Shown piece after piece: positions 18,673-55,764 of a stretch of DNA of 58,072 nucleotides. The translations under genes were made by a program, and so were the position numbers. The DNA is from Candidatus Woesearchaeota archaeon (GTDB lineage: Archaea; Nanobdellota; Nanobdellia; SCGC-AAA011-G17; GW2011-AR18), in assembly GCA_964524105.1 (NCBI GenBank), contig CAZGBX010000005.1, positions 3,772 through 61,843 of the forward strand, written 5' to 3'. The notes below the pieces were generated by a model. It ran no database searches and was not told the origin of the DNA. It saw only the letters and a list, made by a program, of their open reading frames with translations. Each line of letters begins with the position of its first letter. Position 1 is the stretch's first letter.

Positions 18673-18673
18673 A

Positions 18674-21492: not shown

Positions 21493-21527
21493 AAATCATT
21501 TAAATAGATTATTGAATTATTACATAC

Positions 21528-22723: not shown

Positions 22724-22724
22724 A

Positions 22725-24452: not shown

Positions 24453-24587
24453 AAATAAGATTCACAAAGTAAACTTCTTAAAACCATACGAATAAAAAAT
24501 AAATATCACAACAATCCTTAAATATGAAACGCTTTAAAAATAATTTATTCCAAGAAAACTTATAAACTTTTTTCAATTGATCAATTT

Positions 24588-24806
24588 ATGCCATTTAACC
24601 ACAATGCCATAGATCAACTGCTAGAAGAAACAGACCTAACCATTGAGACCTTAGCACAAGAATTAGGAATTACTAGAACTAACCTTCAAACAAGTATGAA
24701 AAACTGGAGGGGAGAAGGCAACCCCACAGTAAGAAGAATCGATGAACTATATTGTATTGCACAAAGATATGGCTCTAGCGTAGAATTCTACGAAAAACCG
24801 AGATGA
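24588..24806 (+). CDS. Small helix-turn-helix protein
   Basis: 72 aa. LTIETLAQELGITRTNLQTSM is HTH-like. A TATA box lies 22 nt upstream of the ATG. Confidence 0.5.
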   Translation: MPFNHNAIDQLLEETDLTIETLAQELGITRTNLQTSMKNWRGEGNPTVRRIDELYCIAQRYGSSVEFYEKPR

Positions 24807-24859
24807 AACTAAAAATCGCCACCATAATCCTTATAAATTACTCATAAAATAATAAACAT

Positions 24860-42424: not shown

Positions 42425-42508
42425 GTGGGAGTGCCGGAGCGGTCAAACGGGCTGGGCTTAGGACCCAGTGGCTTAGTGCCTACGCAGGTTCGAACCCTGT
42501 CTCCCACA
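42425..42508 (+). tRNA. tRNA-Leu(UAG), class II, no intron
   Basis: Acceptor GTGGGAG/CTCCCAC. D arm CCG-GAGCGGTCAAA-CGG. Anticodon arm CTGGG-CTTAGGA-CCCAG. Long variable arm. T arm GCAGG-TTCGAAC-CCTGT. Discriminator A. Confidence 0.9.
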
Positions 42509-42512
42509 AGTT

Positions 42513-43238
42513 CTACTTCAACACTTTAAACAACTTCATTCTAAGAAGATTAGTTAAAACAACAAAAACTAAAGAAAGAATTATTAGAATAATCAAAGAA
42601 ACACTTAGAACAATAAACACATAGATCAAACCAACTAATAACACTAATAAAAAGGAACAAATCAAAAACAATACAAACCAATGCCAAGTCCTCCTTAACT
42701 TATTCAAACCATGAACAAAAACATTTCTTAAATTATAACTTCTACAAAAAGCCACAAAATTAAAGTACAAAACAATTGAAACTAAAACAGAAACTAAAAG
42801 TAAAATCCAACCATTCACCCACCCAACACCAAAAGAGAAGTAAGATAAGAAATCTAAAAAAGCTAAAACAAAAATTAAGAAAGCAAAAGCATTAACTAGG
42901 TTCAACAAAGCAATCCTTTTCCAACTAACATTTCTTAATTCTTTCCAAGCTAAACCTTCAAAAATTAAAAACAATAAATAAATACCTAAAGGCAAAACAA
43001 TCATGTACAAACCTAAAGCATAATAAGATAACCTTGAAGCACTATCAATTACAGCAGTATTAACTTCAGCAGTTAAGTTACTAGCAATTAATTCTTGTTG
43101 TATTTGATTAAGTTCAGGAAGATAACTTTTCAAATCCACTAACATCTTTTCTGCAGTAATTCGAACAACATAAACTAATCCAACTAACAAACCAATTAAA
43201 ACAATTCCAAACAGATTAAGTCTAATATGCTTTTTCAT
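42513..43238 (-). CDS. Polytopic membrane protein, last gene of the giant-protein operon
   Basis: 241 aa with ~6 TM segments. ATGA overlap with the 1609-aa gene. Confidence 0.7.
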   Translation of the reverse strand: MKKHIRLNLFGIVLIGLLVGLVYVVRITAEKMLVDLKSYLPELNQIQQELIASNLTAEVNTAVIDSASRLSYYALGLYMIVLPLGIYLLFLIFEGLAWKELRNVSWKRIALLNLVNAFAFLIFVLAFLDFLSYFSFGVGWVNGWILLLVSVLVSIVLYFNFVAFCRSYNLRNVFVHGLNKLRRTWHWFVLFLICSFLLVLLVGLIYVFIVLSVSLIILIILSLVFVVLTNLLRMKLFKVLK

Positions 43239-46200
43239 TGTATCATTTTAATGTAAACAGGATTTCTATCAGCCCCATGAATTGCAGGATCTCCAAAATC
43301 AGAATAGATTTCATAAATCCCATGAGGAGTATCATAACTAAAAGTCTCCATAGGTTCAACATCCACCCTTTGATGAATCCATGGCAATCCAGGTTGAACT
43401 TTAATACGTGTAAAAACAAGCATATTTGCACCTACATTATTACCAGAATAAAGAAGATAATCCCCTGGGTCAGCAGCACCCCAATTATTAACATGGCCTA
43501 CAAAACTAACAACACCAGCCAATTTAACAGCATCCCCAACCTCCATTTGAAACTCACGTAAATCAGGGTCACCATCATCAAAACCTTCAGGTGCAAAATC
43601 CATCTCTTCAACATCAGCACCTGTATCCGCAGGTGGAACAACAGGTTCAGGAGCACTAGCAAAATCTCTTAAAGGTATCCTCCCTTCACTAGGAGGTCTT
43701 CCACTTAACCAAGCCAAAGAAATACGTCCAAGAGTTACATGATCCACCGTCACAGGAACATAATTTACTCTATTACCCAAATAATGTTGTTGAGTAAAGT
43801 CCTTATTACCAAATTCTCTTGTAATAAACCTAACAGCGTTTTCAGTTGGTAAAGCAGCAGCACCAGTCCTTCCTGGAGGCAAGACCAACAAGTTCAATTC
43901 ATACCCAAAATTCTTACTAACTAACTTATCCCATACTAATTGTGTTGCACCATAATAATCAGAATCTGAAAAAGTTATCTTATGTGGATTAATCCTATTT
44001 AAATCACCACTTTGAGCAGCCCACCAAAGAACAGCACCACCAGCACTATGTCCAGTCATAGAAATAAAAGAACTCTGATCTTGAATCATTCCAAATTTCT
44101 GAGCAAGAATAACCTTTACTTCACTCTGTAATTCAAGAAGATCTATTCCTTCATCATCATTCTTCCGAAGTAATGTTTTTTGCCTCGAAAGGGCCCTCCT
44201 AGGTTCTTTATTAGTTCCAGCAGACCAAGGAAGCTCAGGGAAAACTAAAACAAAATTTCTATTTTGATTATTAACCATATACTCTATTTGAGGAGCTAAC
44301 CTTTCTTCCATATCAACATCAAACCCGTAAATCCCATGGAAAAAGTACATAATTTCAAAAGGTTGATTCAAATTAGTTTCTTGAGGAACAAAAATAATTG
44401 TTTCTCTCCCTTCCGCAGGCATATTAAAGTTATCACCAGGCCCATTAGATTCCAATTTACCAATCCAAGTCCTCCCTGTAACACCCTTAGAATCTAAAGC
44501 GCTAAGCCATTTCACTTTAGTAGCTTCCAAAGCATTACCCTCAGCAACAATAATCCAAGGTTCAGAATCTCCTCCAGTTAATATTGAAGTTGGATCTGGT
44601 CCACCAGTAGAGCCAGGACCAGGATCAGTACCATCATCCACATCAAAAACATAGTCAGCATCTGCATCATCAAAAGGACCACTAGTAGAAGTTCCAGAAA
44701 GACCACCTTCAAATTCACTAACATGAACTTCTTGTTCTTCACCAAGATTCACAACAAAACTATTCCCAAAAGACCTTGCCCTAAAACTCCTAAACGTAAC
44801 TTGATCACCATCTCTTTCAAGAACAATTTTATATATTTTATTTTCAGCAACACCTAATTCTTGTTTAGTTCCAGAAACTAACTTCTCATCATCAACTCTA
44901 AAAGCATAAAACTTATACACTTCACTTTCATAAGTCAATAATATATACCATCCATCATCATCAATCTCTCCAAATTTAACATCACCAATTTTCTTAAACC
45001 TTGTACTATAAGTTTTTTCATCATCAACGTTTCCTAAGTTCTCAGGAATACTAAATATAAAATCTCCTGAACCAGCAGGCTTATCAACTTCAATAACCCA
45101 AGCATCTTTCTTCCTTATACATTTTCCTTCACGACCAAAAGCTTTATTGAAGAATTTATCTGACTTAATAGGTTTCCAAACACAACTATTACCAATCTTC
45201 CCACTAATATAATCACAAGCGCTCCTAGAACAAGTTTTTCCACCTGACTGACAAGAACTACAAGTCACAGCTTCTTTAACTCCAAACGCCCCAGGTTTAG
45301 TAATATCCCACTTATCTAACTCAACAGGATACTTAACTACATCATCACCAAACCCGTGATTAAAATCCCTATTCACATTCCCATAAACACACCTACCTAA
45401 CCCAAGAGACTTCTTCCAATCAGAACCACCAAACACATAATGCCAATATTCACCAAGCCAATTTATCCAACCATGATCACACATCATCCTCCTATACTTA
45501 TTTTGCTCATCAATATCAGTCTTCACTTTCCCCAATTTTTTAGCAGGTTGAACATCAATCGCATAACCTTGTGGATGTAAACAATGTTTGTAACTCTTAA
45601 GATCTTCAATCTTATCTTTATACTTACTACCTTCTGTAGTTTTCAACCAAGATTTAACTGCAGTCAGCCTTGCACTCTTAGAAGAATTTGATAATCCTGG
45701 AGTTGAAGAGATATATGCAGAAACCTTCCTTCTAATACTTCCACGAGAAACACTAAATTTAGGTCCACAAGCAGTATCCCCACCACCAAGGTAACGCATA
45801 AATGCTCTTGATTGAGTTTTCTCACTTCTTCCAGCACTAATAACCTTCAAAGAACCATAACCATTAACCTCAAGATTATCAATAAAATCTTTGTCAATCT
45901 TCATACTATCTAACTTAGCTTTAACATGCGGCAACATACAACACTTCCCCTTATAAGTACTACACCGAATATACTTATTTCCTTTAAAGTTAACAAAGTT
46001 TCCAGGGAACCCTTTACAATCTCCACTAGTTTGAATATTATCAAAGTCAGGTTCTTCAAACTCAATAGGAGAAGTCACTGGCTCACCATCCTCATCATAC
46101 TCTTGTTCAGGTTCAGGCTCAGGTTCTCTTTCAATAGGCACTCTCCTAATTGTCTTCTCTTCAATCAAACTCACAGTACCTTCATGTATCCTTCTAAGTT

Positions 46201-48064
46201 CAGCTAACTTCTTATACATCCTAGCCTGTTCTAAAAGAGCCTCATTAGAAATTGCCCCATCAAAAGTTCTTTTATTAACGTCATCATAAGTTAATCCAGT
46301 TGGAGGGTCTCTAAGTTCAACTAACTGCCTAATAATATCTTCTGCACCTGGTAGATCTTCAAGTGTTCTTCTTGGTGCTTTCTCATCAGTACTTTCACCA
46401 ACAAAAGTACAATAATAACTTTGTTGATAACAACATTTAGTTCCTTGTGACATACACTCCTGATCACTCATTATACTTCCACCTTGTACAAAAGTTCTTA
46501 TTTGATCTTCAGAAAATCCCTTATAAAACCTACACTCATAATTTGGTGCAAAGTTATCACAAATATTTTTTATTTTTCCAACTGAAAAAACATTCACACT
46601 CCCACCCATAATATCCTGTTCCTGTTTTAATTCAAACCTATAACCACCAACAGTTTTAACATCACCAATACTACCCAAGTAAATTGGTTTCACACCAGAA
46701 ACACGACCAAGATTATCAACTTGAAATAAACTAAAAGACTTCTTCCCACTTTCTTCTACAAGGGCAACATAATCACCAGGAGATTTCATTCCATTCAACC
46801 AACCTGTAAAAGTTTCAACATTACTTATTTCTTCATCAACAAAACATCTCTTCCCACGACCATTCAAACTAAGAACAATAAAATCCCCTAAACTTAATTC
46901 AAGAAGATCATCACCCACATTATAATACCCTACATCAGAAGGTTCAATCCCACTACAAAACTCATCAGTACCCCCACCAGGCAAAACAACAACAGTAGCA
47001 ACACCAGTCCCAGTGGGAGTAGCTCCAGAAGAAGGAGCTAAATCACCAGGCAAAACCAAACCCCTTGCATCAGCATATTTCTTCCCAAACTTTTTCATAT
47101 ATTTTTTACTTTGTCTAGCAACACCCTTAGCAATAATCTCTCCTTTCTCACGAGAAACAACAACCATATTTTCCTCATACCTCACATCCCCGGATCCTTC
47201 TAAACTAGTTAAAGTTGCGTCAAAATCAGTAGAGTAAAACATCTCCCTAATTGCCTTTTCAGTCATATACGTCCTCATGTCAGGGTCGTCATGAGACATA
47301 GAACGTATGTTAATCAATTTCTTATTCTCCAAATCAATCTCAAAACTATAATGTAAAATCTGTCCATTCTTAAGTTGAATATCAATATTTGTTACAGAAC
47401 CATCAGCAAAAATACTAGCAGGAGGTTTAACCATACCCAACTCAGGAATAATTTGGTCTTCCATTTCACTCATCAAAAAATTAGTCCAATCTTTTACATT
47501 TAACCCCACACCAACATCCCCACCACTCCCAAAACTCAGAGCACCAGGAGCACTCACTTGCTGTGTAGGGGTCTTGTCTGGTGGTGAAGGAGCAACATCA
47601 GAAGGTTCCGTTTCATCATCAACACTAAAAACATAGTCAGCATCAGAATCCTCTAAAGGACCACCCCAATCACCATCACTTTGATCTGAAGGATCATCTG
47701 GATCAACAGGACCAGAGCTTTCTGTATAACTACAATGGTCCCAATCTGGACAATAAGCAACTACAGCTTTATTTTCAAGAGAAAAATCAAACCTGACACC
47801 ATGCAAACGATACTTTTTAAACTCATTCACCCCAACATCATCATTTAACCTAAAACACTTCTTCGCAAAATAATCACTAGCCCTCAATAAAGCTTCATCC
47901 TCCTGCACAGTAACTGGCATATCCTCATCAAAAGTCACAGCAGCAATACACCCATAACTTCCTTCCATCCGCTGGGCAAATTCAACTAAACTCTCACCAA
48001 CAACCACATTACTAACTAAAAGAATCATACAAAAAATTAAAACCAATTTTATTTTCAAGGACAT
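43235..48064 (-). CDS. Giant (1609 aa) secreted multidomain protein with VanY/M15-like peptidase and alpha/beta-hydrolase motifs
   Basis: Signal peptide MSLKIKLVLIFCMILLVSNVVVG. SAGRSxxxQ, HPQGYAID and EYWH motifs at aa 743-875. FFHG and GHSAGG at aa 1241-1342. Cys-rich modules, and a repeated DADYVFxVDD linker. Confidence 0.85.
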   Translation of the reverse strand: MSLKIKLVLIFCMILLVSNVVVGESLVEFAQRMEGSYGCIAAVTFDEDMPVTVQEDEALLRASDYFAKKCFRLNDDVGVNEFKKYRLHGVRFDFSLENKAVVAYCPDWDHCSYTESSGPVDPDDPSDQSDGDWGGPLEDSDADYVFSVDDETEPSDVAPSPPDKTPTQQVSAPGALSFGSGGDVGVGLNVKDWTNFLMSEMEDQIIPELGMVKPPASIFADGSVTNIDIQLKNGQILHYSFEIDLENKKLINIRSMSHDDPDMRTYMTEKAIREMFYSTDFDATLTSLEGSGDVRYEENMVVVSREKGEIIAKGVARQSKKYMKKFGKKYADARGLVLPGDLAPSSGATPTGTGVATVVVLPGGGTDEFCSGIEPSDVGYYNVGDDLLELSLGDFIVLSLNGRGKRCFVDEEISNVETFTGWLNGMKSPGDYVALVEESGKKSFSLFQVDNLGRVSGVKPIYLGSIGDVKTVGGYRFELKQEQDIMGGSVNVFSVGKIKNICDNFAPNYECRFYKGFSEDQIRTFVQGGSIMSDQECMSQGTKCCYQQSYYCTFVGESTDEKAPRRTLEDLPGAEDIIRQLVELRDPPTGLTYDDVNKRTFDGAISNEALLEQARMYKKLAELRRIHEGTVSLIEEKTIRRVPIEREPEPEPEQEYDEDGEPVTSPIEFEEPDFDNIQTSGDCKGFPGNFVNFKGNKYIRCSTYKGKCCMLPHVKAKLDSMKIDKDFIDNLEVNGYGSLKVISAGRSEKTQSRAFMRYLGGGDTACGPKFSVSRGSIRRKVSAYISSTPGLSNSSKSARLTAVKSWLKTTEGSKYKDKIEDLKSYKHCLHPQGYAIDVQPAKKLGKVKTDIDEQNKYRRMMCDHGWINWLGEYWHYVFGGSDWKKSLGLGRCVYGNVNRDFNHGFGDDVVKYPVELDKWDITKPGAFGVKEAVTCSSCQSGGKTCSRSACDYISGKIGNSCVWKPIKSDKFFNKAFGREGKCIRKKDAWVIEVDKPAGSGDFIFSIPENLGNVDDEKTYSTRFKKIGDVKFGEIDDDGWYILLTYESEVYKFYAFRVDDEKLVSGTKQELGVAENKIYKIVLERDGDQVTFRSFRARSFGNSFVVNLGEEQEVHVSEFEGGLSGTSTSGPFDDADADYVFDVDDGTDPGPGSTGGPDPTSILTGGDSEPWIIVAEGNALEATKVKWLSALDSKGVTGRTWIGKLESNGPGDNFNMPAEGRETIIFVPQETNLNQPFEIMYFFHGIYGFDVDMEERLAPQIEYMVNNQNRNFVLVFPELPWSAGTNKEPRRALSRQKTLLRKNDDEGIDLLELQSEVKVILAQKFGMIQDQSSFISMTGHSAGGAVLWWAAQSGDLNRINPHKITFSDSDYYGATQLVWDKLVSKNFGYELNLLVLPPGRTGAAALPTENAVRFITREFGNKDFTQQHYLGNRVNYVPVTVDHVTLGRISLAWLSGRPPSEGRIPLRDFASAPEPVVPPADTGADVEEMDFAPEGFDDGDPDLREFQMEVGDAVKLAGVVSFVGHVNNWGAADPGDYLLYSGNNVGANMLVFTRIKVQPGLPWIHQRVDVEPMETFSYDTPHGIYEIYSDFGDPAIHGADRNPVYIKMIQ

Positions 48065-49401
48065 TGTTCAGTTCCTATTGTCAAAGTACCAACAGCCTTA
48101 GCATCAGGACCATTCATCCAAGCATAAGGCGCAATACCTTCACTATCTAAATCATCACGCCTTGCAAAGTTAATCCTACATCCTGTTTGTTGCGCAGCAG
48201 TACTTTCATCTCCAAGTTCAAGCAAGAACCTAATAACAGATAACGCATTCTTTCTCACTTCAACATCATCAAGACTATCTAATCCAACAGCAGGTGAAGC
48301 ACCAACAGCCATCTCATAACCTTTATGTGACCATGAAGGCTGACTTACAACACCCGGATAAGTATTACCAAGGACAGGATCACCAAGAGCCAATCTATTC
48401 TTAGCAATACCAAGTATTGTTCCTTTCTCTTCTTTAGTTGTGTCAGGCGTAGTTTCAAATCCTAACATCTGTGTTAAATGTTCAACATTATTATTATTCA
48501 ACCCAAATTTAGCAATAACATTCCTAACTTGATCAGGTGTAACATCAGCAGGATTGTTTCTAACTAAAACATCTAAGTCTTCACGACTAATTGGAACCCT
48601 TTCCTCTTCAATAACCCTATTAACAATTTGAACTCCTCTTGCCTCACCGTGTGTACTAGCATACTCATTAATCATTTGTTCTAATCTTTGCAACAAAGCC
48701 CTTTTCCTATCATTCAATCCAAACAAAGCTTTCCTAGCTTTAGCAACTTCTATTGTATCTAACTTATCTTTAGCTTTCTCAAACAAACTCTTCTCAATAT
48801 CATCACTAACTTCAAGATCATTAACCCTCACAGACTTCCTTTGTATCCAACAACTTCCAAGTTCACCACCACACTCTCCAACTTTAGCCCACTCATTAAC
48901 AGGACCAGGAACAATTGGATTACAAACCCTAACTAAACCTGTTGAAAAAGCACCATACTTTTCAGGGAAAGGTAAAGTAGCAGAACCAACACTCAGAGAA
49001 CTATACCTATCATTAGTAATACACTCTTCAGCAGAACCAATATCTTGTGTAACTTGATTCCTTACAGCCAAATCAGTTAACTCATTAAAAGCAAAAGACG
49101 AAGTTACTTTTCCAAACCCACATTGAGGATCATGTCCAGTTATATGTATACAAATCTCATTATAACCTTCACGAGCAGCAGTTTGTACAGTTTGTTGAAC
49201 ATACTTTCCCTTCTCAACATTCAAGTATTGTCTCCCATCACTATTTGGATTAGTTGCAACAAATAAAGGTGGTAATCCTAACTGATCATTCTTCAAATAA
49301 ACAGTAAATTTCAAAGGTTCTTTATGTACACCACCTAACTGTTGCGGACTACCTAACAAACTTTCACTTGAAGGATAACCAGTCCCGGCATAAATATGAT
49401 A
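48055..49401 (-). CDS. Secreted or anchored ~448-aa protein of the giant-protein operon (start uncertain)
   Basis: The ATG at 49401 gives MFKVLGLILIYHIYAGTG, which is signal-like. The ORF is open to 49476 and overlaps the upstream gene. Its stop overlaps the next start (ATGTCCTTGA). Confidence 0.65.
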   Translation of the reverse strand, partial: YHIYAGTGYPSSESLLGSPQQLGGVHKEPLKFTVYLKNDQLGLPPLFVATNPNSDGRQYLNVEKGKYVQQTVQTAAREGYNEICIHITGHDPQCGFGKVTSSFAFNELTDLAVRNQVTQDIGSAEECITNDRYSSLSVGSATLPFPEKYGAFSTGLVRVCNPIVPGPVNEWAKVGECGGELGSCWIQRKSVRVNDLEVSDDIEKSLFEKAKDKLDTIEVAKARKALFGLNDRKRALLQRLEQMINEYASTHGEARGVQIVNRVIEEERVPISREDLDVLVRNNPADVTPDQVRNVIAKFGLNNNNVEHLTQMLGFETTPDTTKEEKGTILGIAKNRLALGDPVLGNTYPGVVSQPSWSHKGYEMAVGASPAVGLDSLDDVEVRKNALSVIRFLLELGDESTAAQQTGCRINFARRDDLDSEGIAPYAWMNGPDAKAVGTLTIGTEQCP

Positions 49402-52400
49402 GATCAGTATTAAACCCAACACCTTGAACATTAAACGGAATGTCTCCGACCTCTTCAACATAAGGTGCAGTATCAAAGAACGCTGTATACTGCGGTGGAT
49501 TCTCTGGTTCAGATAACTGATCTAATATGTCACCAAAACTAGGGGGCTTACCATACACAGACATTCTACAAATCTGCGAACCAATCTCTTCTGTAGACTG
49601 CCCTTTGTAAGCTGCTAAAAACGTGTTACTATATTCAGTTGTAAAGTAATTAAATGATTCTCCAACATTATTCATACTAGATTGGAAAGTTAAATACTCA
49701 ACCCCACCTTCAGGTTCACCAAACGCATTATCAGATAACCAATCAATTATTCCACCACGAATTTGTAAAATATGTATTGCTTCTCTCCAAACCATCTCAC
49801 ACATTCCTACAGACCTAATGTAATCACAAACCCCAATATCACCTTCTCCAGCTAAAGAAGTTTCTAAACAATCAACATAACCTTGTAATACACTTTGTAA
49901 GTTTTTCAAACCAGCAGATATTCCTGTTAAACAAACAGGCACCATTACCCCTTGCTTATGGTTAGGTAAACAAAGTAAAGTTGACCCAACAATTCCAGAC
50001 TGAATAACATTATCAACTTTAACTCTTCCACCTAAAGTACATCTTGAAGAAGGACACATAACAGGATCACAAGCATTAAACAACAACTTACAATCTGAAG
50101 GATCCATTACATCAGCACAAGACGGTGCAAACCGATCAGTTAAGATATTCACTTGTTCCATACTACAAACAATATCCCTTCCTAAAGTCACAGTATTATC
50201 TAACCCACCTAAAACCTCTCCTTCTTTAGAACAACGCCTAGCAGAATTAATCTTATCATCATAATATCCTTTCTTTGGATGGTACCTTATTGCATCCCAA
50301 GTATAAACTGACTTATCATCTCCCCCACCACCACAATCAATAACTCCATTCATTCCAACATTCATAACTCTATACTTATCAACAGAACCTGAATTAAACC
50401 TGTTCAGCACTTCAACATATTCCCCATTTCCAGTAGGATAACATACTGCCTTCCCTGAAGTATCATACTGTGCAAAGATTCCCTTGTTCCCAGTATCAGA
50501 AGAAACCTGTGCAGTATAATCATTAGAAGTTACTCTTCCACCTTCACCAGACACAGCGGTCTTATACAAAGTAACACCCGGCCTTGGAACCTTAACAACA
50601 ATAGGATTTCCATCTACAACAACATTCTTATTATCAAGTTCCCCAGCTTTAGCATAAATCTGTTCATTCCGTTCAGTAACAGCAGGAGTGTTTGACATTT
50701 GTCTTAATCTTCTATTAGCCGCCCGGGCATCAGTAGGTGGACCTTCAACACTAATTCCAACACTCCTTTCTAATTTGGCAAAGTCTCCATCTTCTCGCAC
50801 AAGACCCATCCCAAGCTCAGTCACAGGCACAAGATCATAAGTTGCAGGAGGTCCAACCTCAGGAGTAACAAAACCAACTGGCTTATCTGCAATTCCATCT
50901 TTGAAAACCACAGAATTCAAAGTTCTAAACTTAACTCCGTAATCATCTTCAACTTCATACTCATCTTTACTTTGTATGGCAGTCAAGTAAGCATCAACAG
51001 CAGCTTTCTGATCACCACCAAAAGTCGCACGATTCTCATTATAATATTTCACAGCATTATCATAATGTTGTATTCTCACATGGTACTGCAAAGGATCAAA
51101 CTTACTTTTAACAAACTTATAATACTCATCATCCTCACCTAAAGAATCTTTTAACAAATCAATACGCCTTGCTGTCCTACACTCATCAACATTTCCATTA
51201 GCTTTCAAATACTTAGCACAATCATGATTACTTGATTTCAACTTCTCAACAGTTCCATACTTTCCAAACTCATTATCAACATTTTCAATAATCTCTTGTT
51301 CAGACTTAACCCTGTTTTTAATATCATCCATGTTCTCCTCAGACAAGTAACACTCATCATAAGTTTGATAAGCACCCCGCCTACCAACTTGAGTTTTACA
51401 CTTCTCTTTAGCATACTCCATTACAGAACGCCTTGCTAAGTTCCTACCTGGACCACCCAAGAAAGAATTCTTAACAGTCAAAGTTACAAAAGTAAGTATA
51501 CAAGTCCTCTTCCAAAACTTAATTATCTTATCTAATCTATCAAGCACACCCTGCATGTCCCCGATAATTTCCTTTGTCTTAGCAATCTGACTTTCCATTT
51601 GTTCAGGTGTAAACTCAAACAACCTTGGATCAACAGGAATATGCACTTTGAAATTAGAATGTGCTATTGCATTATCACTTCCAGGAATAACAGAAACATA
51701 AGCTTCATTCTTAACATCAATATCCTCAACAAAAACACTTACTTCATAAGCTTGTTTTTTCTCCCGTATTATGTTCATAGTATTTTCACTCTTATACTCA
51801 AGTATTTTCTCTTCACTTAACAAGAAAGTCTGTGAATTAGAAAACCCAGACAAATAATTTTTAGGATCAAATTCTTTTCCATCAAAATGATATTTCCTCA
51901 AAGTAACAGAACCTGGAGTTATCTTGTAAACTCTCCACTGATAATTCTTTCCTTCTTCAGAGAAAAAAGAATGTTTATCAACAACTTCATAAGCACTACC
52001 CAAATCCACAACACCATTCAAGTTAACAGTTCTTGAAGGACCACGATTAACTTTCAAAGAAACAAATCCCTTATCTTTATCTTCCAAAACCCTAACTTCT
52101 CTCAAGTTCATGTGCATACTTTCATCATTCAAGTATAAACTTCCACCAGAAGAAACAACTTGTCCCCTTAACCGAGTCATAAGTGCAGGGTCTGCAGCCC
52201 CCATTGCTTCTAACTTCTTGGCATAAAAGAAAGCAAGATCCTTCAAATCTTTTTTATAAGAAACACACCTTGGGTCACCTGGAGCAGGTGAGTCAGCGGG
52301 CATACAACCAGCAAAAGTAATCTGCCCATTCTCATAAAGATCAACAATCTGTTCAAGTGCATAGCCCACCTCAGTTCCACCAGTAGAAATATAAGTTTGG

Positions 52401-53746
52401 AACAACCTTAAAGCCCTACAACCAAAACTTGGATCACCAACAACAACAGCCGGACAATACTTCCCTTCTAAAACATCAACTTCATCTTGACTAAGTTCTG
52501 TAGGAGTAATAGTAACAGTTTCCTCACCCAACTTCAAAAAATCTTTCGTCACAACTTTCTTAGTCCCACCATTCCTTAAAATCACAGTATGAGTAACTTT
52601 CTTAACTTCATTATCAGCATAACCAGCAACTAAAGCTTGTGTTTCATCATCCAATTCAAAAATCTCACCAGCCCTAGCTTTACCAATACTAGTTGGTGGA
52701 GAAATATCAACAGAAGAAACAATCCAATTAGAACCATAATATAACTTCTTCCCACGATTAACTTTCACTTGACTACTAACACCCTTTTGTGTAACATCAA
52801 ACACAGCCATATCATCGGGAGTCACAATATCATTTAATCTTACTCTAAACTGATCTCTAAAAGGATCACCAGTATCACCCAAAGATAAAACAGGACTATA
52901 ATCACCTGGAGTTAATCTAAACGTTGGCCTTACACCCTGATCTAACCTTCCAGAACCAGGCATAACTCTCCCTTGTGAAGAGGGCATATAAGTTTGCAAA
53001 GTTGGATAAATTGTCCCATAATGTCTATCATAAACTGCTATTGTAGCAGAACCATCACTAACATCAATTGCATTCACATAACCACGCCCAGAAAAGAACG
53101 GATTTTGTTCATAAGCATTAGCACTTAAGAATCCACTTTCATCCATTTGTTTTACTAAAAGATCTTGTCTAGTCATTCCAAAAACATTTCCAACATCAAA
53201 ATCAAATCTTATCTCAGCATTCATATCTAAAGTTATAACATTGTTAGTAACATTCTCTAACAAAGCTTTTCCTTTAGCATCTAACCTTTTCAAATCAACA
53301 ATCAAGTAACCTAAATCCCCCATAGAATAATCTTCCCTTTTTAATGGAATATAATAAGGATTCCTTACAACAAAATCAGAACTTCCGTTCATAGTAACTG
53401 TCATCTGTTTAATTGGTGGAAAAGTTCCAACCCCTGTAACAGAACCAGTACTAACTTTAGTACTAGAAATCCTTCCAGCCAAAGTATCTAAACTTTCACC
53501 ACGTAAAGAAACAAACACAGGCACACCCTCCTGTTCTAAATGAGATTGCCTAATCATCTTAGGCTCGTAATCATCAACATTAACAACAATCAATTCCCCA
53601 ACATCAGTTGGCTCACCACCAAACAATCCAGACTCCATAAAACCTTTTGCTTCATCTCGCTCATAAGGCTGCTCATACTGTGCAACAACAATTGGCATAC
53701 TGATTATCAAAACCATACAAATTATAGTCAAAAATTTCTTCATCAT
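49364..53746 (-). CDS. Giant (1460 aa) secreted protein with Cys-rich C-terminal region, no recognised family
   Basis: Signal peptide MMKKFLTIICMVLIISMPIVVAQ. About 20 Cys residues are concentrated at 49780-50340. ATGA overlap with the upstream gene. Confidence 0.85.
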   Translation of the reverse strand: MMKKFLTIICMVLIISMPIVVAQYEQPYERDEAKGFMESGLFGGEPTDVGELIVVNVDDYEPKMIRQSHLEQEGVPVFVSLRGESLDTLAGRISSTKVSTGSVTGVGTFPPIKQMTVTMNGSSDFVVRNPYYIPLKREDYSMGDLGYLIVDLKRLDAKGKALLENVTNNVITLDMNAEIRFDFDVGNVFGMTRQDLLVKQMDESGFLSANAYEQNPFFSGRGYVNAIDVSDGSATIAVYDRHYGTIYPTLQTYMPSSQGRVMPGSGRLDQGVRPTFRLTPGDYSPVLSLGDTGDPFRDQFRVRLNDIVTPDDMAVFDVTQKGVSSQVKVNRGKKLYYGSNWIVSSVDISPPTSIGKARAGEIFELDDETQALVAGYADNEVKKVTHTVILRNGGTKKVVTKDFLKLGEETVTITPTELSQDEVDVLEGKYCPAVVVGDPSFGCRALRLFQTYISTGGTEVGYALEQIVDLYENGQITFAGCMPADSPAPGDPRCVSYKKDLKDLAFFYAKKLEAMGAADPALMTRLRGQVVSSGGSLYLNDESMHMNLREVRVLEDKDKGFVSLKVNRGPSRTVNLNGVVDLGSAYEVVDKHSFFSEEGKNYQWRVYKITPGSVTLRKYHFDGKEFDPKNYLSGFSNSQTFLLSEEKILEYKSENTMNIIREKKQAYEVSVFVEDIDVKNEAYVSVIPGSDNAIAHSNFKVHIPVDPRLFEFTPEQMESQIAKTKEIIGDMQGVLDRLDKIIKFWKRTCILTFVTLTVKNSFLGGPGRNLARRSVMEYAKEKCKTQVGRRGAYQTYDECYLSEENMDDIKNRVKSEQEIIENVDNEFGKYGTVEKLKSSNHDCAKYLKANGNVDECRTARRIDLLKDSLGEDDEYYKFVKSKFDPLQYHVRIQHYDNAVKYYNENRATFGGDQKAAVDAYLTAIQSKDEYEVEDDYGVKFRTLNSVVFKDGIADKPVGFVTPEVGPPATYDLVPVTELGMGLVREDGDFAKLERSVGISVEGPPTDARAANRRLRQMSNTPAVTERNEQIYAKAGELDNKNVVVDGNPIVVKVPRPGVTLYKTAVSGEGGRVTSNDYTAQVSSDTGNKGIFAQYDTSGKAVCYPTGNGEYVEVLNRFNSGSVDKYRVMNVGMNGVIDCGGGGDDKSVYTWDAIRYHPKKGYYDDKINSARRCSKEGEVLGGLDNTVTLGRDIVCSMEQVNILTDRFAPSCADVMDPSDCKLLFNACDPVMCPSSRCTLGGRVKVDNVIQSGIVGSTLLCLPNHKQGVMVPVCLTGISAGLKNLQSVLQGYVDCLETSLAGEGDIGVCDYIRSVGMCEMVWREAIHILQIRGGIIDWLSDNAFGEPEGGVEYLTFQSSMNNVGESFNYFTTEYSNTFLAAYKGQSTEEIGSQICRMSVYGKPPSFGDILDQLSEPENPPQYTAFFDTAPYVEEVGDIPFNVQGVGFNTDLSYLCRDWLSFK

Positions 53747-55734
53747 ATTACTGGATACTTAAACGCCGGATCTTTATCATTCTCTTCTACTGCAAGAGAT
53801 AAAGCCATCATACCTTCTAAATCTCCAGGGACAGGATTAACCATTGTATAAACAGTCAAATCATTTCCTGAAGCTAAGTCACTTTGCTCAAGATCAAACT
53901 CAAAGTCAACCCCACCTTTCAAAGCATAATCTAATTCAAACGATTCCATTTCAACTTCAAAACACTTTTCAGTTTCTCTCCCAAAGAACCCTAACACACC
54001 ACCAGAATTTACATCAACACAATTCTTTATTGTTTCTTTTGGAGTTGTAACAGGCCAAGTTGATTCCCCAACCACATAAGACGACACAGTATAGTGCCCT
54101 TCAACTAAGTCAATCACCATATCATCTGGAAAAGATGCACGACCAACAAACCCATTATCATTAACAAAATCAAAAGTTACTTGCTCATCATCATAAGGTT
54201 GCCTAACCTCACCTGAATTCTTATCAATAACTAACATCTTCACATCTTTTGTATAAATTTTATCTAATACAACATCCACACTTGTCAACTCACCAGTATT
54301 AGTTGAAACATCATAAGTCTTTCCCCTATAAAACCCTTCTTTTTCAGCCTCAATAATCCCATTCACACAACCTGGAACTCTAGCAACTAACCCACCATTA
54401 GTACTGTCACCTAAGTCACACCTTGCAGGGTAACATTTGTAATACACAGTAGCACCATTTAATGATTTATAATTTCCAGACGCATCATAATACTTAACTC
54501 CAACATCTAAATCAGCTTGTGGATTATCACAAATAATATTCTCACCTGTATCTTCAAGTAAAGGTTCAAAACTATTCTTTCTAGGTTGATTATTATCAAT
54601 TATTACTTCAGTTACAAAGTTGAAAACATAACCAGTATTTTTATCCTTCAAAGTTACTAAGACAGGATATTTAATATCATAAATAAAATGATGACTTGAC
54701 AAACAAAAGAAAGAAGATAACACACTAGTCATAAAACCACTTGTCCCCTTACTCATAGAATCACCTTGTAACACATCACCTTTTGAAGGTTCAACTTCAA
54801 CATAAGTTGGCCACGATGGTGAATACATAAAACTCACAGATAAATCATCATCAGAATCATCTAAAGCCTCAACTTCAAAGTAATCTTGAACATTAGTGTA
54901 AGATGTACCTTTAACCCTTAAAGAAGCAACATTACTTTGTAAGATCTCTTTAAACCTTGCAATGACTTCAGTCTTTGACCATACTTTCTCATAACATTCC
55001 ATATCAATTCCTGAATAAGGAACTTCTTCATCATAAGCAATTAACATTTCAATTGTTTTCTTCTCTAAGAACAGACCTTCATTTTCAGCTTCCATAATTT
55101 CAACCGCATTATCATACAACCTTCCTAAAGGAACTTCTGACCTACCAAGATGATTCTCTAAAAGGAACTCAACATCTTTTATTTTAACATTCACAGGATA
55201 ATCAACAATCACATCCACAGTTTCATCCAAGATACTAACTTTAATATCAATGTCAGTTGTTTCAGAAGTAAACCTATACTTATTCATATCATTTAACATA
55301 AGTAAACACTGATCAAAATTATCAACAACATAATCACCTAATTGTTTTTCCATATCTCTTTTCAAAGGAACATTAGTAACTTGTTCCCCAGTTGGCCTTT
55401 CCCTAAACCAAACTGGTACAGCCAAACCAGGAAGTATTTCTAAATTACTAGACAAAGGAACAAAAATATTAGTCAAAAACTTTTCTTCTGGAGCTTCAAT
55501 ATAACCACCTGAAATCCCCAACTTATCAACACCCTGCCTAGTCAAATCATTAACACAAGAATCCAAAACTTGAGCAACAGGTTTTACTTCTTCAGGCAGT
55601 CTAGAATGTAAATCTAATTGCGAATCTAAGTCTCCAGAAACAAACCAAAACTTATAAGCTAAAAGACCAGCAACAATAACAAGAATCACTATTCCAATAA
55701 CTACAAAAGTTGTTACTTGCCCCCTCTTTTCCAT
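53743..55734 (-). CDS. 663-aa surface protein with prepilin-like (class III) signal peptide, first gene of the operon
   Basis: MEKRGQVTTFVVIGIVILVIVAGLL has a charged KRG, then Q, then a hydrophobic stretch. The protein is acidic and beta-rich, with a possible CarboxypepD_reg-like module. TATA box 23 nt upstream. Confidence 0.8.
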   Translation of the reverse strand: MEKRGQVTTFVVIGIVILVIVAGLLAYKFWFVSGDLDSQLDLHSRLPEEVKPVAQVLDSCVNDLTRQGVDKLGISGGYIEAPEEKFLTNIFVPLSSNLEILPGLAVPVWFRERPTGEQVTNVPLKRDMEKQLGDYVVDNFDQCLLMLNDMNKYRFTSETTDIDIKVSILDETVDVIVDYPVNVKIKDVEFLLENHLGRSEVPLGRLYDNAVEIMEAENEGLFLEKKTIEMLIAYDEEVPYSGIDMECYEKVWSKTEVIARFKEILQSNVASLRVKGTSYTNVQDYFEVEALDDSDDDLSVSFMYSPSWPTYVEVEPSKGDVLQGDSMSKGTSGFMTSVLSSFFCLSSHHFIYDIKYPVLVTLKDKNTGYVFNFVTEVIIDNNQPRKNSFEPLLEDTGENIICDNPQADLDVGVKYYDASGNYKSLNGATVYYKCYPARCDLGDSTNGGLVARVPGCVNGIIEAEKEGFYRGKTYDVSTNTGELTSVDVVLDKIYTKDVKMLVIDKNSGEVRQPYDDEQVTFDFVNDNGFVGRASFPDDMVIDLVEGHYTVSSYVVGESTWPVTTPKETIKNCVDVNSGGVLGFFGRETEKCFEVEMESFELDYALKGGVDFEFDLEQSDLASGNDLTVYTMVNPVPGDLEGMMALSLAVEENDKDPAFKYPVI

Positions 55735-55756
55735 AACAAAAAATCTAATTTTACCA

Positions 55757-55764
55757 TATATAAA
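55757..55764 (-). promoter_or_regulatory. TATA box (TTTATATA on the minus strand) of the giant-protein operon
   Basis: Its 3' end is 23 nt upstream of the ATG at 55734, which implies a leaderless transcript. Confidence 0.5.

What the first reader, a model, noticed from the sequence alone, without database searches (positions are those of the whole stretch)
42513..55764. Leaderless five-gene operon of giant, acidic, Cys-rich exported proteins plus a polytopic membrane protein: candidate cell-surface or host-interaction apparatus
What the sequence shows:
- Five consecutive minus-strand ORFs of 663, 1460, ~450, 1609 and 241 aa occupy 13.2 kb, about 23% of the window.
- They are translationally coupled. 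ATGA overlaps occur at 53743-53746 and 43235-43238. An ATGTCCTTGA overlap occurs at 48055-48064. A long overlap occurs at 49364-49476.
- One TATA box (55757-55764) sits exactly 23 nt upstream of the first ATG.
- Gene 1 starts with a prepilin-like KRGQ plus hydrophobic signal. Genes 2 and 4 have classic Sec signal peptides. Gene 5 has ~6 TM segments.
- The exported proteins are Asp/Glu/Gly-rich and Lys-poor, in sharp contrast to the Lys-rich housekeeping proteins around them. They contain clustered cysteines.

I recognise catalytic motifs only in the 1609-aa protein. The 663-aa, 1460-aa and ~450-aa proteins match no family I know.

Inference: this is a dedicated envelope or host-contact machine of a DPANN-type episymbiont, combining adhesion with envelope-degrading activities and a membrane partner.
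Basis: partly seen in the sequence, partly recalled or inferred. Interest (0 to 1): 0.85.

Follow-up and report, generated by a model that had tools for sequence, protein, structure and literature searches.

The report
Archaeal surface operon carrying bacterial-wall-cutting enzymes
A tiny DPANN (Woesearchaeota) archaeon, which has no bacterial-type cell wall of its own, carries a conserved operon for a pilin-like anchored protein, a giant cysteine-stabilised exported scaffold and swappable enzymes that in relatives are bacterial cell-wall (murein) hydrolases, suggesting these uncultured archaea attach to, feed on or attack bacteria.

Summary
The ORFs, overlaps, TATA box, acidic Lys-poor composition and membrane protein are real. 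However, it is four genes, not five: the 1460-aa and 473-aa ORFs are one ~1,900-aa gene broken by a +1 frameshift near 49,400.

The window is from a Woesearchaeota (DPANN) archaeon. Gene A (class III/prepilin-like signal, β-sandwich stalk domains) and giant gene B form a conserved, translationally coupled pair found in at least 214 species genomes. The B core defines about 900 clusters. Neither has any Pfam, PDB or viral relative.

After a conserved ~1,680-aa core, B tails differ completely between genomes. So do the separate "C-slot" proteins, which share a Cys-rich adaptor. Together they carry SLT, M15, M23, Amidase_2/3, glucosaminidase, GDSL lipase, phosphoesterase and PT-HINT domains. D, a 6–7-TM protein, follows in half of the loci.

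In this window the enzyme assignments are weaker: a VanX-like M15 match at E = 0.003, and a Ser-Asp-His hydrolase at motif level only.

The giant family was already noted in the literature (fam00969, "large murein-like lytic transglycosylase proteins"). The operon, the adaptor, the cargo shuffling and a strong N-glycosylation-sequon depletion were not found described. Best reading: a surface-displayed murein-degrading apparatus aimed at bacteria.

The parts
55757..55764 (-). TATA box TTTATATA; the promoter of a leaderless transcript
   Evidence: Read. There are 22 nt to the ATG, and it is the only 8/8 match on this strand in the operon. The same box lies 21-23 nt from the ATG in 34 of 42 related loci.
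53743..55734 (-). Gene A, 663 aa. It has a class III (prepilin-like) signal, then alpha/beta domains, then beta-sandwich stalk domains. It founds a family with no Pfam annotation.
   Evidence: The family has >100 clusters and >=214 species genomes. The AF2 model has pLDDT 88.8. Foldseek gives only domain-level hits to pilus adhesin/stalk proteins. There are 8 invariant Cys.
55660..55734 (-). Class III signal-like N-terminus of A: MEKRG|QVTTF followed by a hydrophobic helix
   Evidence: The family consensus is KRGQVTxFIIxGIVI. The motif is present in 49 of 63 members. The model shows a long N-terminal helix at residues 5-44.
48055..53746 (-). Gene B, one gene of ~1,897 aa interrupted by a +1 frameshift. 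It is a giant exported scaffold with an N-terminal signal peptide, a conserved core (residues 1 to ~1680) and a variable tail.
   Evidence: Colinear tblastn of the intact homologues P0002 and P0003 across both ORFs. The B family has 899 representative clusters.
49395..49410 (-). Frameshift junction inside gene B. Homology ends at ...GFNTD in frame 1 and resumes at IYHIYAGTG in frame 2.
   Evidence: There is no homopolymer run. Other loci have splits at different positions (L024, L042), so this is not a conserved recoding site.
48709..50578 (-). Most conserved Cys-rich core of B (repaired residues 1057-1680), spanning the frameshift
   Evidence: It is 33-39% identical even to distant B proteins. 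The modelled region has 16 invariant Cys. The AF2 model (pLDDT 69.5) has no PDB or BFVD analogue.
48058..48708 (-). Variable C-terminal tail of B (217 aa), function unverified. It resembles a SleB-type hydrolase by eye only.
   Evidence: It matches only the L001 tail. There is no Pfam or PDB hit.
43235..48064 (-). Gene C, 1609 aa. It is an exported multi-module 'cargo' protein in the variable slot between B and D.
   Evidence: The slot is occupied by 350-1109-aa proteins in relatives. Only parts are shared with the L001 protein.
46085..46597 (-). Cys-rich adaptor module of C (residues 490-660)
   Evidence: It is found at the N-termini of C-slot proteins in L001, L007, L009-L013, L015 and L052, and in some B tails (L002, L007, L037, P0118, P0126).
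45365..45967 (-). VanX/M15-like (LAS) metallopeptidase candidate in C, with R746..Q751, H830-x6-D837 and E872-x2-H875
   Evidence: The motifs are invariant in 4 sequences. The profile hits VanX 1r44 at E = 0.0031 over the EWWHY segment. The homologue P0121 has a sub-threshold Pfam Peptidase_M15 hit. hhalign against M15_4 was not significant.
43685..44527 (-). Alpha/beta-hydrolase-like candidate in C: H1243-G (oxyanion), G-H-S1340-A-G-G, D1367/D1369 and H1442
   Evidence: The motifs are conserved with the tail of the B-family protein P0112 at 42% identity. The only database support is a weak hit to a PHB-depolymerase-family esterase, E = 0.54. The profile search found nothing.
42513..43238 (-). 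Gene D, 241 aa. It is a polytopic membrane protein: an N-terminal TM, a ~50-aa helical loop, then 5 TM segments.
   Evidence: The family has 23 aligned members with low conservation. D lies downstream of B in 23 of 46 evaluable loci. It has no PDB relative.
42425..42508 (+). Convergent tRNA-Leu gene marking the 3' boundary of the operon

Best explanation
This is a vertically inherited cell-surface module of Woese-/Pacearchaeota, transcribed as a leaderless operon from one strong TATA box.

Components:
- A is inserted through a class III (prepilin-type) signal. It remains anchored by its N-terminal helix, either in the membrane or in a short pilus-like fibre, and presents disulfide-stabilised alpha/beta and beta-sandwich stalk domains.
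- B is a Sec-exported giant scaffold of about 1,900 aa whose conserved, 16-Cys core is the constant part.
- B's C-terminal tail is a swappable enzyme cargo.
- C is additional cargo on a separate polypeptide that carries the same Cys-rich adaptor found in some B tails.
- D is a polytopic membrane partner present in about half of the lineages.

Across the family the cargo is overwhelmingly murein-specific: lytic transglycosylases, MurNAc-L-Ala amidases, M23 and M15 peptidases and a glucosaminidase. Lipases and phosphoesterases also occur. The archaeon has no murein of its own, so the target is the bacterial cell wall. The module would display wall-cutting enzymes at the archaeal surface to attach to, breach or digest bacteria, whether as episymbiosis, predation or scavenging of wall material.

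Shown: the gene structure, conservation, synteny, domain content of relatives, signal motifs and composition.

Inferred: that A, B, C and D assemble physically, that the enzymes are active, that the target cells are alive, and that this window's own cargo (a VanX-like peptidase, a Ser hydrolase and an unknown B tail) acts on bacterial envelopes.
For: - A-B adjacency, usually with an ATGA overlap, holds in essentially all of 84 loci with enough sequence.
- The A family is found in >=214 species genomes, all labelled Woese-, Pace- or Nanoarchaeota except one contig (L068) that was binned in a Gammaproteobacteria MAG.
- The B core has 899 clusters, 825 of them at E <= 1e-30.
- The core is conserved while the tails are unrelated.
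- Pfam census of 69 tails and C-slot proteins: SLT 18, M15_4 4, M23 3, Amidase_2 2, Amidase_3 1, Glucosaminidase 1, 3D 1, Phage_lysozyme2 1, SH3_3 1, GDSL lipases 2, Metallophos 1, Exo_endo_phos 1, PT-HINT 1.
- The window's C modules recur as B tails elsewhere (P0120 and P0121; P0112), and a shared adaptor module exists.
- The VanX-like profile hit has E = 0.0031.
- The class III motif and long N-terminal helix are present in A.
- Adhesin/stalk-type folds appear in A.
- Invariant cysteines and 3-4-fold sequon depletion are specific to A, B and C, consistent with export.
- The promoter geometry is conserved.
- The S8e/TFIIB neighbourhood is conserved, and there are no viral, plasmid or PHROG relatives.
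- The literature independently proposed wall binding and degradation for the giant family (PMC8204110, PMC9723730).
Against: - No Pfam domain is detected in any of the window's own proteins.
- The window's M15 assignment is marginal. The Ser-hydrolase and SleB-like assignments are unverified.
- B is frameshifted here, so this copy may be defective or an assembly error.
- D is absent or undetected in half of the loci.
- No prepilin peptidase or pilus ATPase lies in the window.
- No structural analogue was found to suggest how the B core works.
- There are no expression, localisation or host data.
- Murein hydrolases could serve to scavenge dead-cell wall material and not to contact living cells.
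Confidence: 0.6

Rival explanations
1. A and B form the organism's regular two-component surface layer, organised like Sulfolobales SlaB (the membrane stalk) and SlaA (the large canopy). The hydrolase domains are decorations on a primarily structural envelope, so the module is housekeeping and not a dedicated host-contact device.
For: - The pair is near-universal, co-translated, and sits next to ribosomal-protein and TFIIB genes.
- It has a strong canonical promoter.
- The proteins are acidic and exported.
- A has a membrane-anchoring helix plus beta-sandwich stalk domains.
- The B core is conserved regardless of which enzyme tail it carries.
Against: - There is no structural match of A or B to any solved S-layer protein.
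- N-glycosylation sequons are strongly depleted, whereas classical archaeal S-layer glycoproteins are rich in them.
- Many invariant cysteines are atypical for S-layer proteins.
- This reading does not by itself explain why the tails are murein-specific. It is also not exclusive of the best explanation.
Confidence: 0.2
2. The module is a polymorphic-toxin or bacteriolysin weapon. B and C are released into the medium to kill competing bacteria, as shown for halophilic archaeal peptidoglycan hydrolases. Tails are swapped in an arms race, and there is no role in adhesion or symbiosis.
For: - B has a constant N-terminal region and hypervariable C-terminal enzyme domains.
- One member has PT-HINT followed by a further C-terminal domain, and a Fic gene lies next door.
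- Secreted archaeal peptidoglycan hydrolases are known to kill bacteria (PMC12352652).
Against: - PT-HINT occurs in only 1 of 51 tails.
- No co-varying immunity gene is present. D is conserved irrespective of the tail, and none would be needed against murein hydrolases.
- A core of ~1,700 aa plus an anchored partner is a large investment for a diffusible lysin.
- The module is chromosomal, syntenic and vertically inherited, not cassette-like.
Confidence: 0.15
3. The module is a remnant of a virus or mobile element, for example a tail tape-measure or virion-associated lysin module integrated beside a tRNA gene.
For: - A tRNA-Leu gene abuts the 3' end.
- Phage tape-measure proteins are long and can carry SLT or M23 domains (general knowledge).
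- GC content is slightly higher than in the flanks.
Against: - There are no PHROG hits apart from one weak family of unknown function.
- There is no match in 50,697 phage or 72,556 plasmid records.
- No A relative occurs in IMG/VR contigs.
- There is no BFVD structural match.
- The same housekeeping neighbourhood recurs in distant genomes.
- No integrase or capsid genes are present.
Confidence: 0.02

Closest known systems
[quoted passage not shown] 2021, PMC8204110; noted earlier by Rinke 2013 and Castelle 2015; also Vigneron 2022, PMC9723730)
   Same: - The lineage restriction and giant size (up to ~3,000 aa) are the same.
- Both are predicted to be extracellular.
- SLT domains occur in many members.
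- The proposed role, binding and degrading bacterial walls, is the same.
- Gene B is very probably a member.
   Different: - Those papers describe a single protein family recognised by its SLT domain.
- Here the constant feature is a ~1,680-aa Cys-rich core without any known domain. SLT is only one of many interchangeable tails.
- The window's B has no detectable SLT.
- The partner genes A, C (with its adaptor) and D, and the operon itself, were not described in the papers I could search.
Bacterial polymorphic toxin systems (Zhang, Aravind et al. 2012, PMC3482391)
   Same: - A conserved N-terminal trafficking or presentation region carries recombining C-terminal enzymatic domains.
- One family member carries a PT-HINT pre-toxin domain.
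   Different: - The cargo is mostly murein hydrolases and not nucleases or deaminases.
- There is no cognate immunity gene.
- No known secretion-system marker is present.
- The host is archaeal, and the chromosomal locus is stable.
SPEARE giant proteins of Nanohaloarchaeota (Hamm et al. 2019, PMC6642349)
   Same: Both are giant multi-domain surface proteins of a DPANN archaeon that combine adhesion-type and degradative domains, and both are proposed to mediate host contact.
   Different: - No sequence relationship was detected.
- SPEARE proteins carry protease and restriction-endonuclease domains and target an archaeal host.
- This module is a multi-gene operon whose cargo targets bacterial murein.
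Archaeal class III signal-peptide proteins with large functional domains (the Sulfolobus bindosome; 'functionalized' type IV filament systems, bioRxiv 10.64898/2026.04.22.720090)
   Same: Protein A has the [KR]G|Q motif plus a hydrophobic N-terminal helix followed by a large extracellular domain. This is the format of pilin-like anchored functional proteins.
   Different: - A is not a solute-binding protein.
- No filament ATPase, platform protein or peptidase gene lies nearby.
- A is coupled to a Sec-exported giant partner.
Secreted archaeal peptidoglycan hydrolases that kill bacteria (Woldo/Danwoldo, PMC12352652)
   Same: These are archaeal, exported, murein-specific catalytic domains acquired from bacteria. 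That paper notes such hydrolases are prominent in Nanoarchaeota.
   Different: - Those are small modular lysins: a catalytic domain plus a peptidoglycan-binding domain.
- Here the catalytic domains are appended to a giant lineage-specific scaffold within a conserved operon.
VanX/VanY-type M15 (LAS) zinc peptidases
   Same: C residues 700-900 have the R..Q, H-x6-D and E-x-x-H motifs. A profile hits VanX (1r44) over the catalytic EWWHY segment.
   Different: - The E-value is only 0.003.
- The Pfam models do not reach threshold.
- A ~50-aa insertion lies between the motifs.
- The fold was not modelled.

Membership tests
Woese-/Pacearchaeota giant murein-transglycosylase-domain family (fam00969) | Restricted to Woesearchaeota and Pacearchaeota | tested here: met
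   All 80 fetched loci come from Woese-, Pace- or Nanoarchaeota MAGs, apart from one 8-kb contig that was binned in a gammaproteobacterial MAG.
Woese-/Pacearchaeota giant murein-transglycosylase-domain family (fam00969) | Very large (up to ~3,000 aa) exported protein | tested here: met
   Repaired B is ~1,897 aa with an N-terminal hydrophobic signal. Family members range from 1,383 to 3,741 aa.
Woese-/Pacearchaeota giant murein-transglycosylase-domain family (fam00969) | Contains a murein lytic transglycosylase (SLT) domain | tested here: not met
   The window's B has no SLT or any other Pfam domain. SLT is present in 18 of 69 relatives' tails and C-slot proteins, and in P0003, P0112 and P0120.
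Woese-/Pacearchaeota giant murein-transglycosylase-domain family (fam00969) | Sequence membership in the published family | not testable with these tools
   The fam00969 sequences and HMM are not at hand. Membership is inferred from the matching description.
Polymorphic toxin systems | Conserved N-terminal region with variable C-terminal enzymatic domains | tested here: met
Polymorphic toxin systems | Pre-toxin domain (such as PT-HINT) preceding the toxin | tested here: not met
   It is absent from the window and present in only 1 of 51 tails (L003).
Polymorphic toxin systems | Cognate immunity gene immediately downstream that co-varies with the toxin | tested here: not met
   The downstream gene D is one conserved family whatever the tail, and it is absent in half of the loci.
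Type IV pilin-like / class III signal peptide proteins (protein A) | [KR][GA]|[Q..] cleavage motif followed by a hydrophobic N-terminal helix | tested here: met
   A has MEKRG|QVTTFVVIGIVILVIV. The motif is present in 49 of 63 members and Q6 is >=90% conserved. The model shows a helix at residues 5-44.
Type IV pilin-like / class III signal peptide proteins (protein A) | Prepilin peptidase and filament ATPase or platform genes in the locus | tested here: not met
   None was found among the Pfam-annotated window genes. The rest of the genome is not available.
Type IV pilin-like / class III signal peptide proteins (protein A) | Processing by the peptidase and incorporation into a filament | not testable with these tools
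   This needs biochemistry or cryo-EM.
Peptidase M15 (VanX/VanY, LAS fold), C residues 700-900 | Zn-ligand and catalytic motifs H-x6-D and E-x-x-H, plus an upstream R/Q | tested here: met
   R746, Q751, H830, D837, E872 and H875 are invariant in the 4-sequence alignment.
Peptidase M15 (VanX/VanY, LAS fold), C residues 700-900 | Statistically significant match to a family model or structure | tested here: inconclusive
   The PDB profile hit to VanX 1r44 has E = 0.0031. Pfam Peptidase_M15 scores 17.2 bits in homologue P0121, below the cut-off of 27. hhalign against verified M15_4 domains gives probability 1.3%.
Alpha/beta hydrolase, C residues 1180-1460 | HG oxyanion motif, G-x-S-x-G nucleophile elbow, then Asp, then His in that order | tested here: met
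   H1243-G, G-H-S1340-A-G-G, D1367/D1369 and H1442 are conserved with P0112.
Alpha/beta hydrolase, C residues 1180-1460 | Significant sequence or structure match | tested here: not met
   The best hit is PHB-depolymerase-family esterase 8daj at E = 0.54. The profile search gives nothing relevant. Pfam gives nothing.
Two-component archaeal S-layer (SlaA/SlaB type) | Large outer protein plus a membrane-anchored stalk protein encoded together | tested here: met
   This holds as an organisational analogy only.
Two-component archaeal S-layer (SlaA/SlaB type) | Structural or sequence similarity to known S-layer proteins; heavy N-glycosylation | tested here: not met
   There are no Foldseek hits to S-layer proteins. 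Sequons are depleted to 0.24-0.35 of expectation.
Phage tape-measure or virion-associated lysin | Relatives in phage genomes or phage protein families | tested here: not met

The most novel reading that the evidence does not exclude
A, B, C and D constitute a previously undescribed archaeal cell-surface machine.
- A pilin-type anchored stalk (A) and a membrane platform (D) hold a giant disulfide-locked scaffold (B) of novel fold.
- Interchangeable murein-cutting enzymes are fused to that scaffold or docked onto it through a dedicated Cys-rich adaptor.
- With this machine Woese-/Pacearchaeota open the sacculus of living bacteria to establish cross-domain (archaeon-on-bacterium) episymbiosis or predation.
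- The tail repertoire would then encode host range.
Probability: 0.3. Interest if true: 0.85.

Novelty: new variant of a known kind. Interest (0 to 1): 0.62.

Why it matters
Woesearchaeota and Pacearchaeota are among the most abundant and diverse uncultured archaea. Their hosts are unknown, and whether any DPANN archaeon lives on bacteria is an open question.

This analysis turns a vague literature note ("large murein-like transglycosylase proteins") into a defined four-part operon:
- It occurs in at least 214 species.
- It has a constant scaffold and a catalogue of swappable murein hydrolases covering every bond class of peptidoglycan.

That gives concrete reagents for testing the question:
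- Tails can be used for activity assays on defined peptidoglycan chemotypes.
- The domains of A and B can serve as baits to fish for host cells.
- A conserved promoter and transcript are available to look for in metatranscriptomes.

It also gives a possible genomic read-out of host range. In addition, the B core and protein A are large, confidently bounded families with no structural analogue. The family-wide avoidance of N-glycosylation sequons is an unexplained feature of these exported proteins.

Tried and rejected
- Pfam and NCBIfam on all five ORFs gave nothing above threshold. PHROGs gave only one weak family of unknown function.
- phmmer of full-length C against the PDB gave nothing.
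- The word-indexed homologue search with full-length B1 returned only 2 relatives, because the candidate list saturates for long queries. With C residues 640-1460 it returned nothing at all, not even the L001 homologue. That search was wasted.
- hhalign of the C M15-like region against Pfam-verified M15_4 domains from relatives aligned only the H..G.AID motif, probability 1.3%. The 2-sequence PDB profile gave nothing. Only after adding P0120 and P0121 did VanX appear.
- The idea that the window's B tail is a SleB/CwlJ-type hydrolase, a resemblance seen by eye around '...AKNR...', found no support in a PDB profile search or in Pfam.
- The alpha/beta-hydrolase profile search gave no relevant hit.
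- Foldseek of the B model against the PDB and BFVD gave no match at E < 0.05.
- The D-family profile against the PDB gave only chance hits.
- Virus or mobile-element origin is rejected.
- Programmed frameshifting in B is rejected as unsupported. The shift is +1, there is no conserved slippery site, and splits in other loci fall at other positions.
- One align_proteins call with 81 giant sequences failed and was repeated with 36.

Full report
**1. What is in the sequence**

The five minus-strand ORFs exist at the stated coordinates. The gene junctions are a 4-nt overlap at 53743-53746, a 10-nt overlap at 48055-48064 and a 4-nt overlap at 43235-43238. The window is archaeal, with TFIIB, ribosomal protein S8e and an archaeal CCA-adding enzyme, and has about 34% G+C.

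A perfect archaeal TATA box, TTTATATA, lies at 55757-55764. Twenty-two nucleotides separate it from the ATG of the first gene. With the usual -26/-27 placement of archaeal TATA boxes (established knowledge), transcription would start at or next to the ATG, giving a leaderless mRNA. It is the only 8/8 match on that strand in the operon, and no comparable box sits at that spacing before the other genes.

The geometry is conserved. In 59 related loci, 42 have a >=7/8 box upstream of the orthologous gene, and 34 of those lie 21-23 nt from the ATG.

The exported proteins contain 5.7-6.5% Lys against 11.5% in the window's other proteins, and have net charges of -56 to -69. Cysteine is only mildly enriched, at 1.5-1.7% against 1.06%.

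**2. Four genes, not five**

Two intact homologues of the 1460-aa ORF, P0002 (1880 aa, 52% identity) and P0003 (2010 aa, 30%), align colinearly through the 1460-aa ORF in one frame. They then continue without a gap in homology into the 473-aa ORF in the next frame. The switch falls between "...GFNTD" and "IYHIYAGTG", at about window 49400-49405.

The "long overlap" is therefore a +1 frameshift inside one gene of about 1,897 aa. There is no homopolymer run or slippery site. A few other loci have B split at different positions (L024 and L042). The likeliest causes are an assembly error or a lineage-specific lesion, not programmed recoding. I call the genes A (663 aa), B (repaired ~1,897 aa), C (1609 aa) and D (241 aa).

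**3. No curated family, but large uncharacterised families**

Pfam, NCBIfam and PHROGs give nothing above threshold for any of the proteins.

- **Protein A** has more than 100 relatives of uniform length (~610-715 aa). All are unannotated, and those that carry a name are from Woesearchaeota or Nanoarchaeota. A single peptide pattern found relatives in 214 species-representative genomes of Woese-, Pace- and Nanoarchaeota. The closest is a Rifle groundwater Woesearchaeota MAG at 64% identity.
- **The most conserved 399 aa of B**, searched exhaustively, match 899 representative clusters. Of these, 825 have E <= 1e-30, in proteins of about 1,400-3,741 aa. This is a large, sharply bounded family.

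**4. Synteny**

In 84 fetched loci, A is followed directly by B wherever enough sequence is present, usually with the same 4-nt overlap. B ranges from 1,383 to more than 3,300 aa.

A D-like protein with 6-8 TM segments and 241-274 aa follows in 23 of 46 evaluable loci. It comes either directly after B or after an intervening exported protein of 350-1,109 aa, which I call the C slot. The window's clade (L001, L007, L009-L013, L015, L052) has the A-B-C-D arrangement.

The module repeatedly sits next to S8e and TFIIB: S8e in 22 of 84 loci, and in 15 of 37 large ones. No relative exists in phage, plasmid or IMG/VR collections. This is a vertically inherited chromosomal module.

**5. Protein A**

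The family consensus begins KRGQVTxFIIxGIVI. Gln6 is >=90% conserved, and 49 of 63 members fit a class III (prepilin-type) signal pattern.

An AlphaFold model built with 63 sequences is confident (pLDDT 88.8). It shows:
- a long N-terminal helix at residues 5-44;
- alpha/beta domains up to about residue 400;
- beta-sandwich domains from residues 400 to 660.

Foldseek finds only domain-level similarity, with TM <= 0.15, to stalk and adhesin proteins of Gram-positive pili: B. anthracis TIE (E = 1e-6), a streptococcal ancillary pilin, and SpaC. Eight cysteines are invariant. No prepilin peptidase or filament ATPase gene is in the window.

**6. Protein B**

Pairwise comparison shows a conserved region from residue 1 to about 1680. 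The best-conserved part is 1057-1680, which spans the frameshift. After it, the sequences of different genomes are unrelated.

A model of residues 640-1680 (36 sequences, pLDDT 69.5) shows four successive parts:
- a long helical region;
- a beta-rich domain;
- a helical Cys-rich core;
- a second beta-rich domain that runs across the frameshift junction.

Sixteen cysteines are invariant. There is no match in the PDB or BFVD at E < 0.05.

**7. The variable parts are murein hydrolases**

I scanned 51 B tails, 16 C-slot proteins and the window's own tail and C against Pfam. Counts out of 69:

| Domain | Members |
|---|---|
| SLT | 18 |
| Peptidase_M15_4 | 4 |
| Peptidase_M23 | 3 |
| Amidase_2 | 2 |
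| Lipase_GDSL_2 | 2 |
| Amidase_3 | 1 |
| Glucosaminidase | 1 |
| 3D | 1 |
| Phage_lysozyme2 | 1 |
| SH3_3 | 1 |
| DUF2272 | 1 |
| Metallophos | 1 |
| Exo_endo_phos | 1 |
| PT-HINT | 1 |

One neighbouring gene is Fic. Per-protein scans give Amidase_2 in L009 and L013, SLT plus M15_4 in L011, SLT in L046, M23 plus SLT in L052, Exo_endo_phos in L001, SLT in L002, and PT-HINT in L003. All of these exceed the Pfam cut-offs.

These enzymes cut the glycan strand, the MurNAc-L-Ala amide bond and D-amino-acid-containing peptide bonds of bacterial murein (established biochemistry of these families). None of these bonds exists in archaeal envelopes or pseudomurein.

**8. Cargo is shuffled between B tails and C-slot proteins**

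An iterated search shows that C residues 490-660 form a Cys-rich module. It is present at the N-termini of all C-slot proteins of the clade and in some B tails (L002, L007, L037, P0118, P0126).

The window's C segment 660-900 recurs as the C-terminal tail of the B-family proteins P0120 and P0121. Segment 1180-1460 recurs as the tail of P0112. P0120 and P0112 also carry SLT. So the same enzyme modules occur either fused to B or on a separate adaptor-bearing polypeptide. That the adaptor docks onto B is my inference.

**9. The window's own enzymes**

*C residues 700-900.* This segment has R746...Q751, H830-x6-D837 and E872-x2-H875, invariant across four sequences. A four-sequence profile hits VanX D-Ala-D-Ala dipeptidase (1r44) at E = 0.0031 over the catalytic EWWHY segment. 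P0121 gives a sub-threshold Pfam Peptidase_M15 hit at the same place. Shallower tests failed. I rate an M15/LAS peptidase as moderately supported.

*C residues 1180-1460.* This segment has HG, G-H-S-A-G-G, Asp and His in the canonical alpha/beta-hydrolase order, conserved with P0112. The only database hit is weak, E = 0.54 to a PHB-depolymerase-family esterase.

*The B tail.* The 217-aa tail matches only its L001 counterpart and has no assignable function.

**10. Protein D**

D has an N-terminal TM segment, a helical loop of about 50 aa, and five more TM segments. Sequence conservation is low and there are no catalytic-looking invariants. It has no PDB relative. Because it is one family regardless of the tail, it is not a cognate immunity protein.

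**11. An unexpected feature**

N-x-S/T sequons are nearly absent from A, B and C: 0, 2 and 1 observed, against 3.9, 11.6 and 8.0 expected from shuffles. This holds family-wide:

| Set | Observed / expected |
|---|---|
| A family | 0.35 |
| B family (510 observed vs 2,123 expected) | 0.24 |
| C-slot proteins | 0.24 |
| Window's other proteins | 0.69 |
| D family | 0.81 |

This fits proteins that cross the membrane and are under selection to stay unglycosylated. It is the opposite of classical archaeal S-layer glycoproteins.

**12. Literature**

Castelle et al. [quoted passage not shown] They proposed attachment to bacterial cell walls. Vigneron et al. 2022 (PMC9723730) and a 2024 study of oxygen-deficient zones (PMC10936187) repeat the observation. 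A 2025 study shows that secreted archaeal peptidoglycan hydrolases kill bacteria and notes their prominence in Nanoarchaeota (PMC12352652).

In the searchable library I found no description of any of the following:
- the A-B(-C)-D operon;
- the class III-signal partner;
- the adaptor module;
- the domain-free conserved core;
- the breadth of swappable cargo;
- the sequon depletion.

**13. Verdict**

Most likely (confidence 0.6), this is a surface-displayed murein-degrading module aimed at bacteria. An S-layer-type structural role (0.2) and a released bacteriolysin or polymorphic-toxin role (0.15) remain open and are partly compatible with the best explanation. A viral or mobile origin is effectively excluded.

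The novelty lies in the module architecture, not in the existence of the giant proteins, so I rate it a new variant of a known kind, with interest 0.62.

Noticed in passing
window 42513-55734 (proteins A, B, C); also the A, B and C-slot families in loci L001-L084 and P0110-P0257: N-x-S/T glycosylation sequons are depleted 3-4-fold in the exported proteins. The observed/expected ratio is 0.24-0.35, against 0.69 for the window's other proteins and 0.81 for membrane protein D. This is the opposite of typical archaeal surface glycoproteins and is unexplained.
   Followed up: partly
window 16921-25711: A Bat/MoxR-type cluster is present: a BatA-VWA protein (583 aa, with DUF7407 and DUF7408), a second VWA protein (811 aa), DUF7502, a MoxR AAA_3 ATPase and DUF58. 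A nitrilase-family gene lies on the opposite strand. The two VWA proteins are the only other window proteins with strong sequon depletion (0 observed vs 4.2 expected; 2 vs 6.5).
   Followed up: partly
window 10452-10573 (+): Rfam finds a tRNA spanning 122 nt (52.3 bits) that ARAGORN did not report. It is probably an intron-containing archaeal tRNA gene.
   Followed up: no
L068 (CAYWKL010000040.1, 8,154 bp): A contig carrying a typical A-B pair is deposited in a MAG labelled 'uncultured Gammaproteobacteria bacterium'. This is almost certainly mis-binning, conceivably caused by coverage co-variation with a bacterial partner.
   Followed up: no
L003 11838-21283: In a distant member the B protein is 2,761 aa. 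It has an SLT-like segment by eye (below the Pfam reporting limit), a PT-HINT pre-toxin domain and a further C-terminal domain. A separate Fic-domain gene and a PIN gene follow. This is a polymorphic-toxin-like elaboration of the same scaffold.
   Followed up: partly
window 47567-47680 and 44585-44701 (C residues 129-166 and 1122-1160): Protein C contains an internal acidic repeat, '...D(S/A)DADYVF(S/D)VDD(E/G)T(E/D)P...'. One copy lies near the N-terminus and one lies just before the hydrolase-like domain. It may be a linker or a processing or recognition motif.
   Followed up: no
L024, L042 (and possibly L046, L073): The B gene is also split into two ORFs in a few other MAGs, at positions different from the window's frameshift. 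This suggests that these giant genes are prone to assembly errors or decay.
   Followed up: partly
window 38708-39517 (-): A 269-aa membrane protein gives a sub-threshold match to DUF7544 (E = 7e-6, 25.9 bits against a cut-off of 27). It is a second uncharacterised polytopic membrane protein near the operon.
   Followed up: no
window 44001-54000: G+C is slightly higher inside the operon (0.36-0.38) than in most of the window (0.30-0.35). This is consistent with the Lys-poor, Gly/Asp/Glu-rich composition and need not indicate foreign origin.
   Followed up: no
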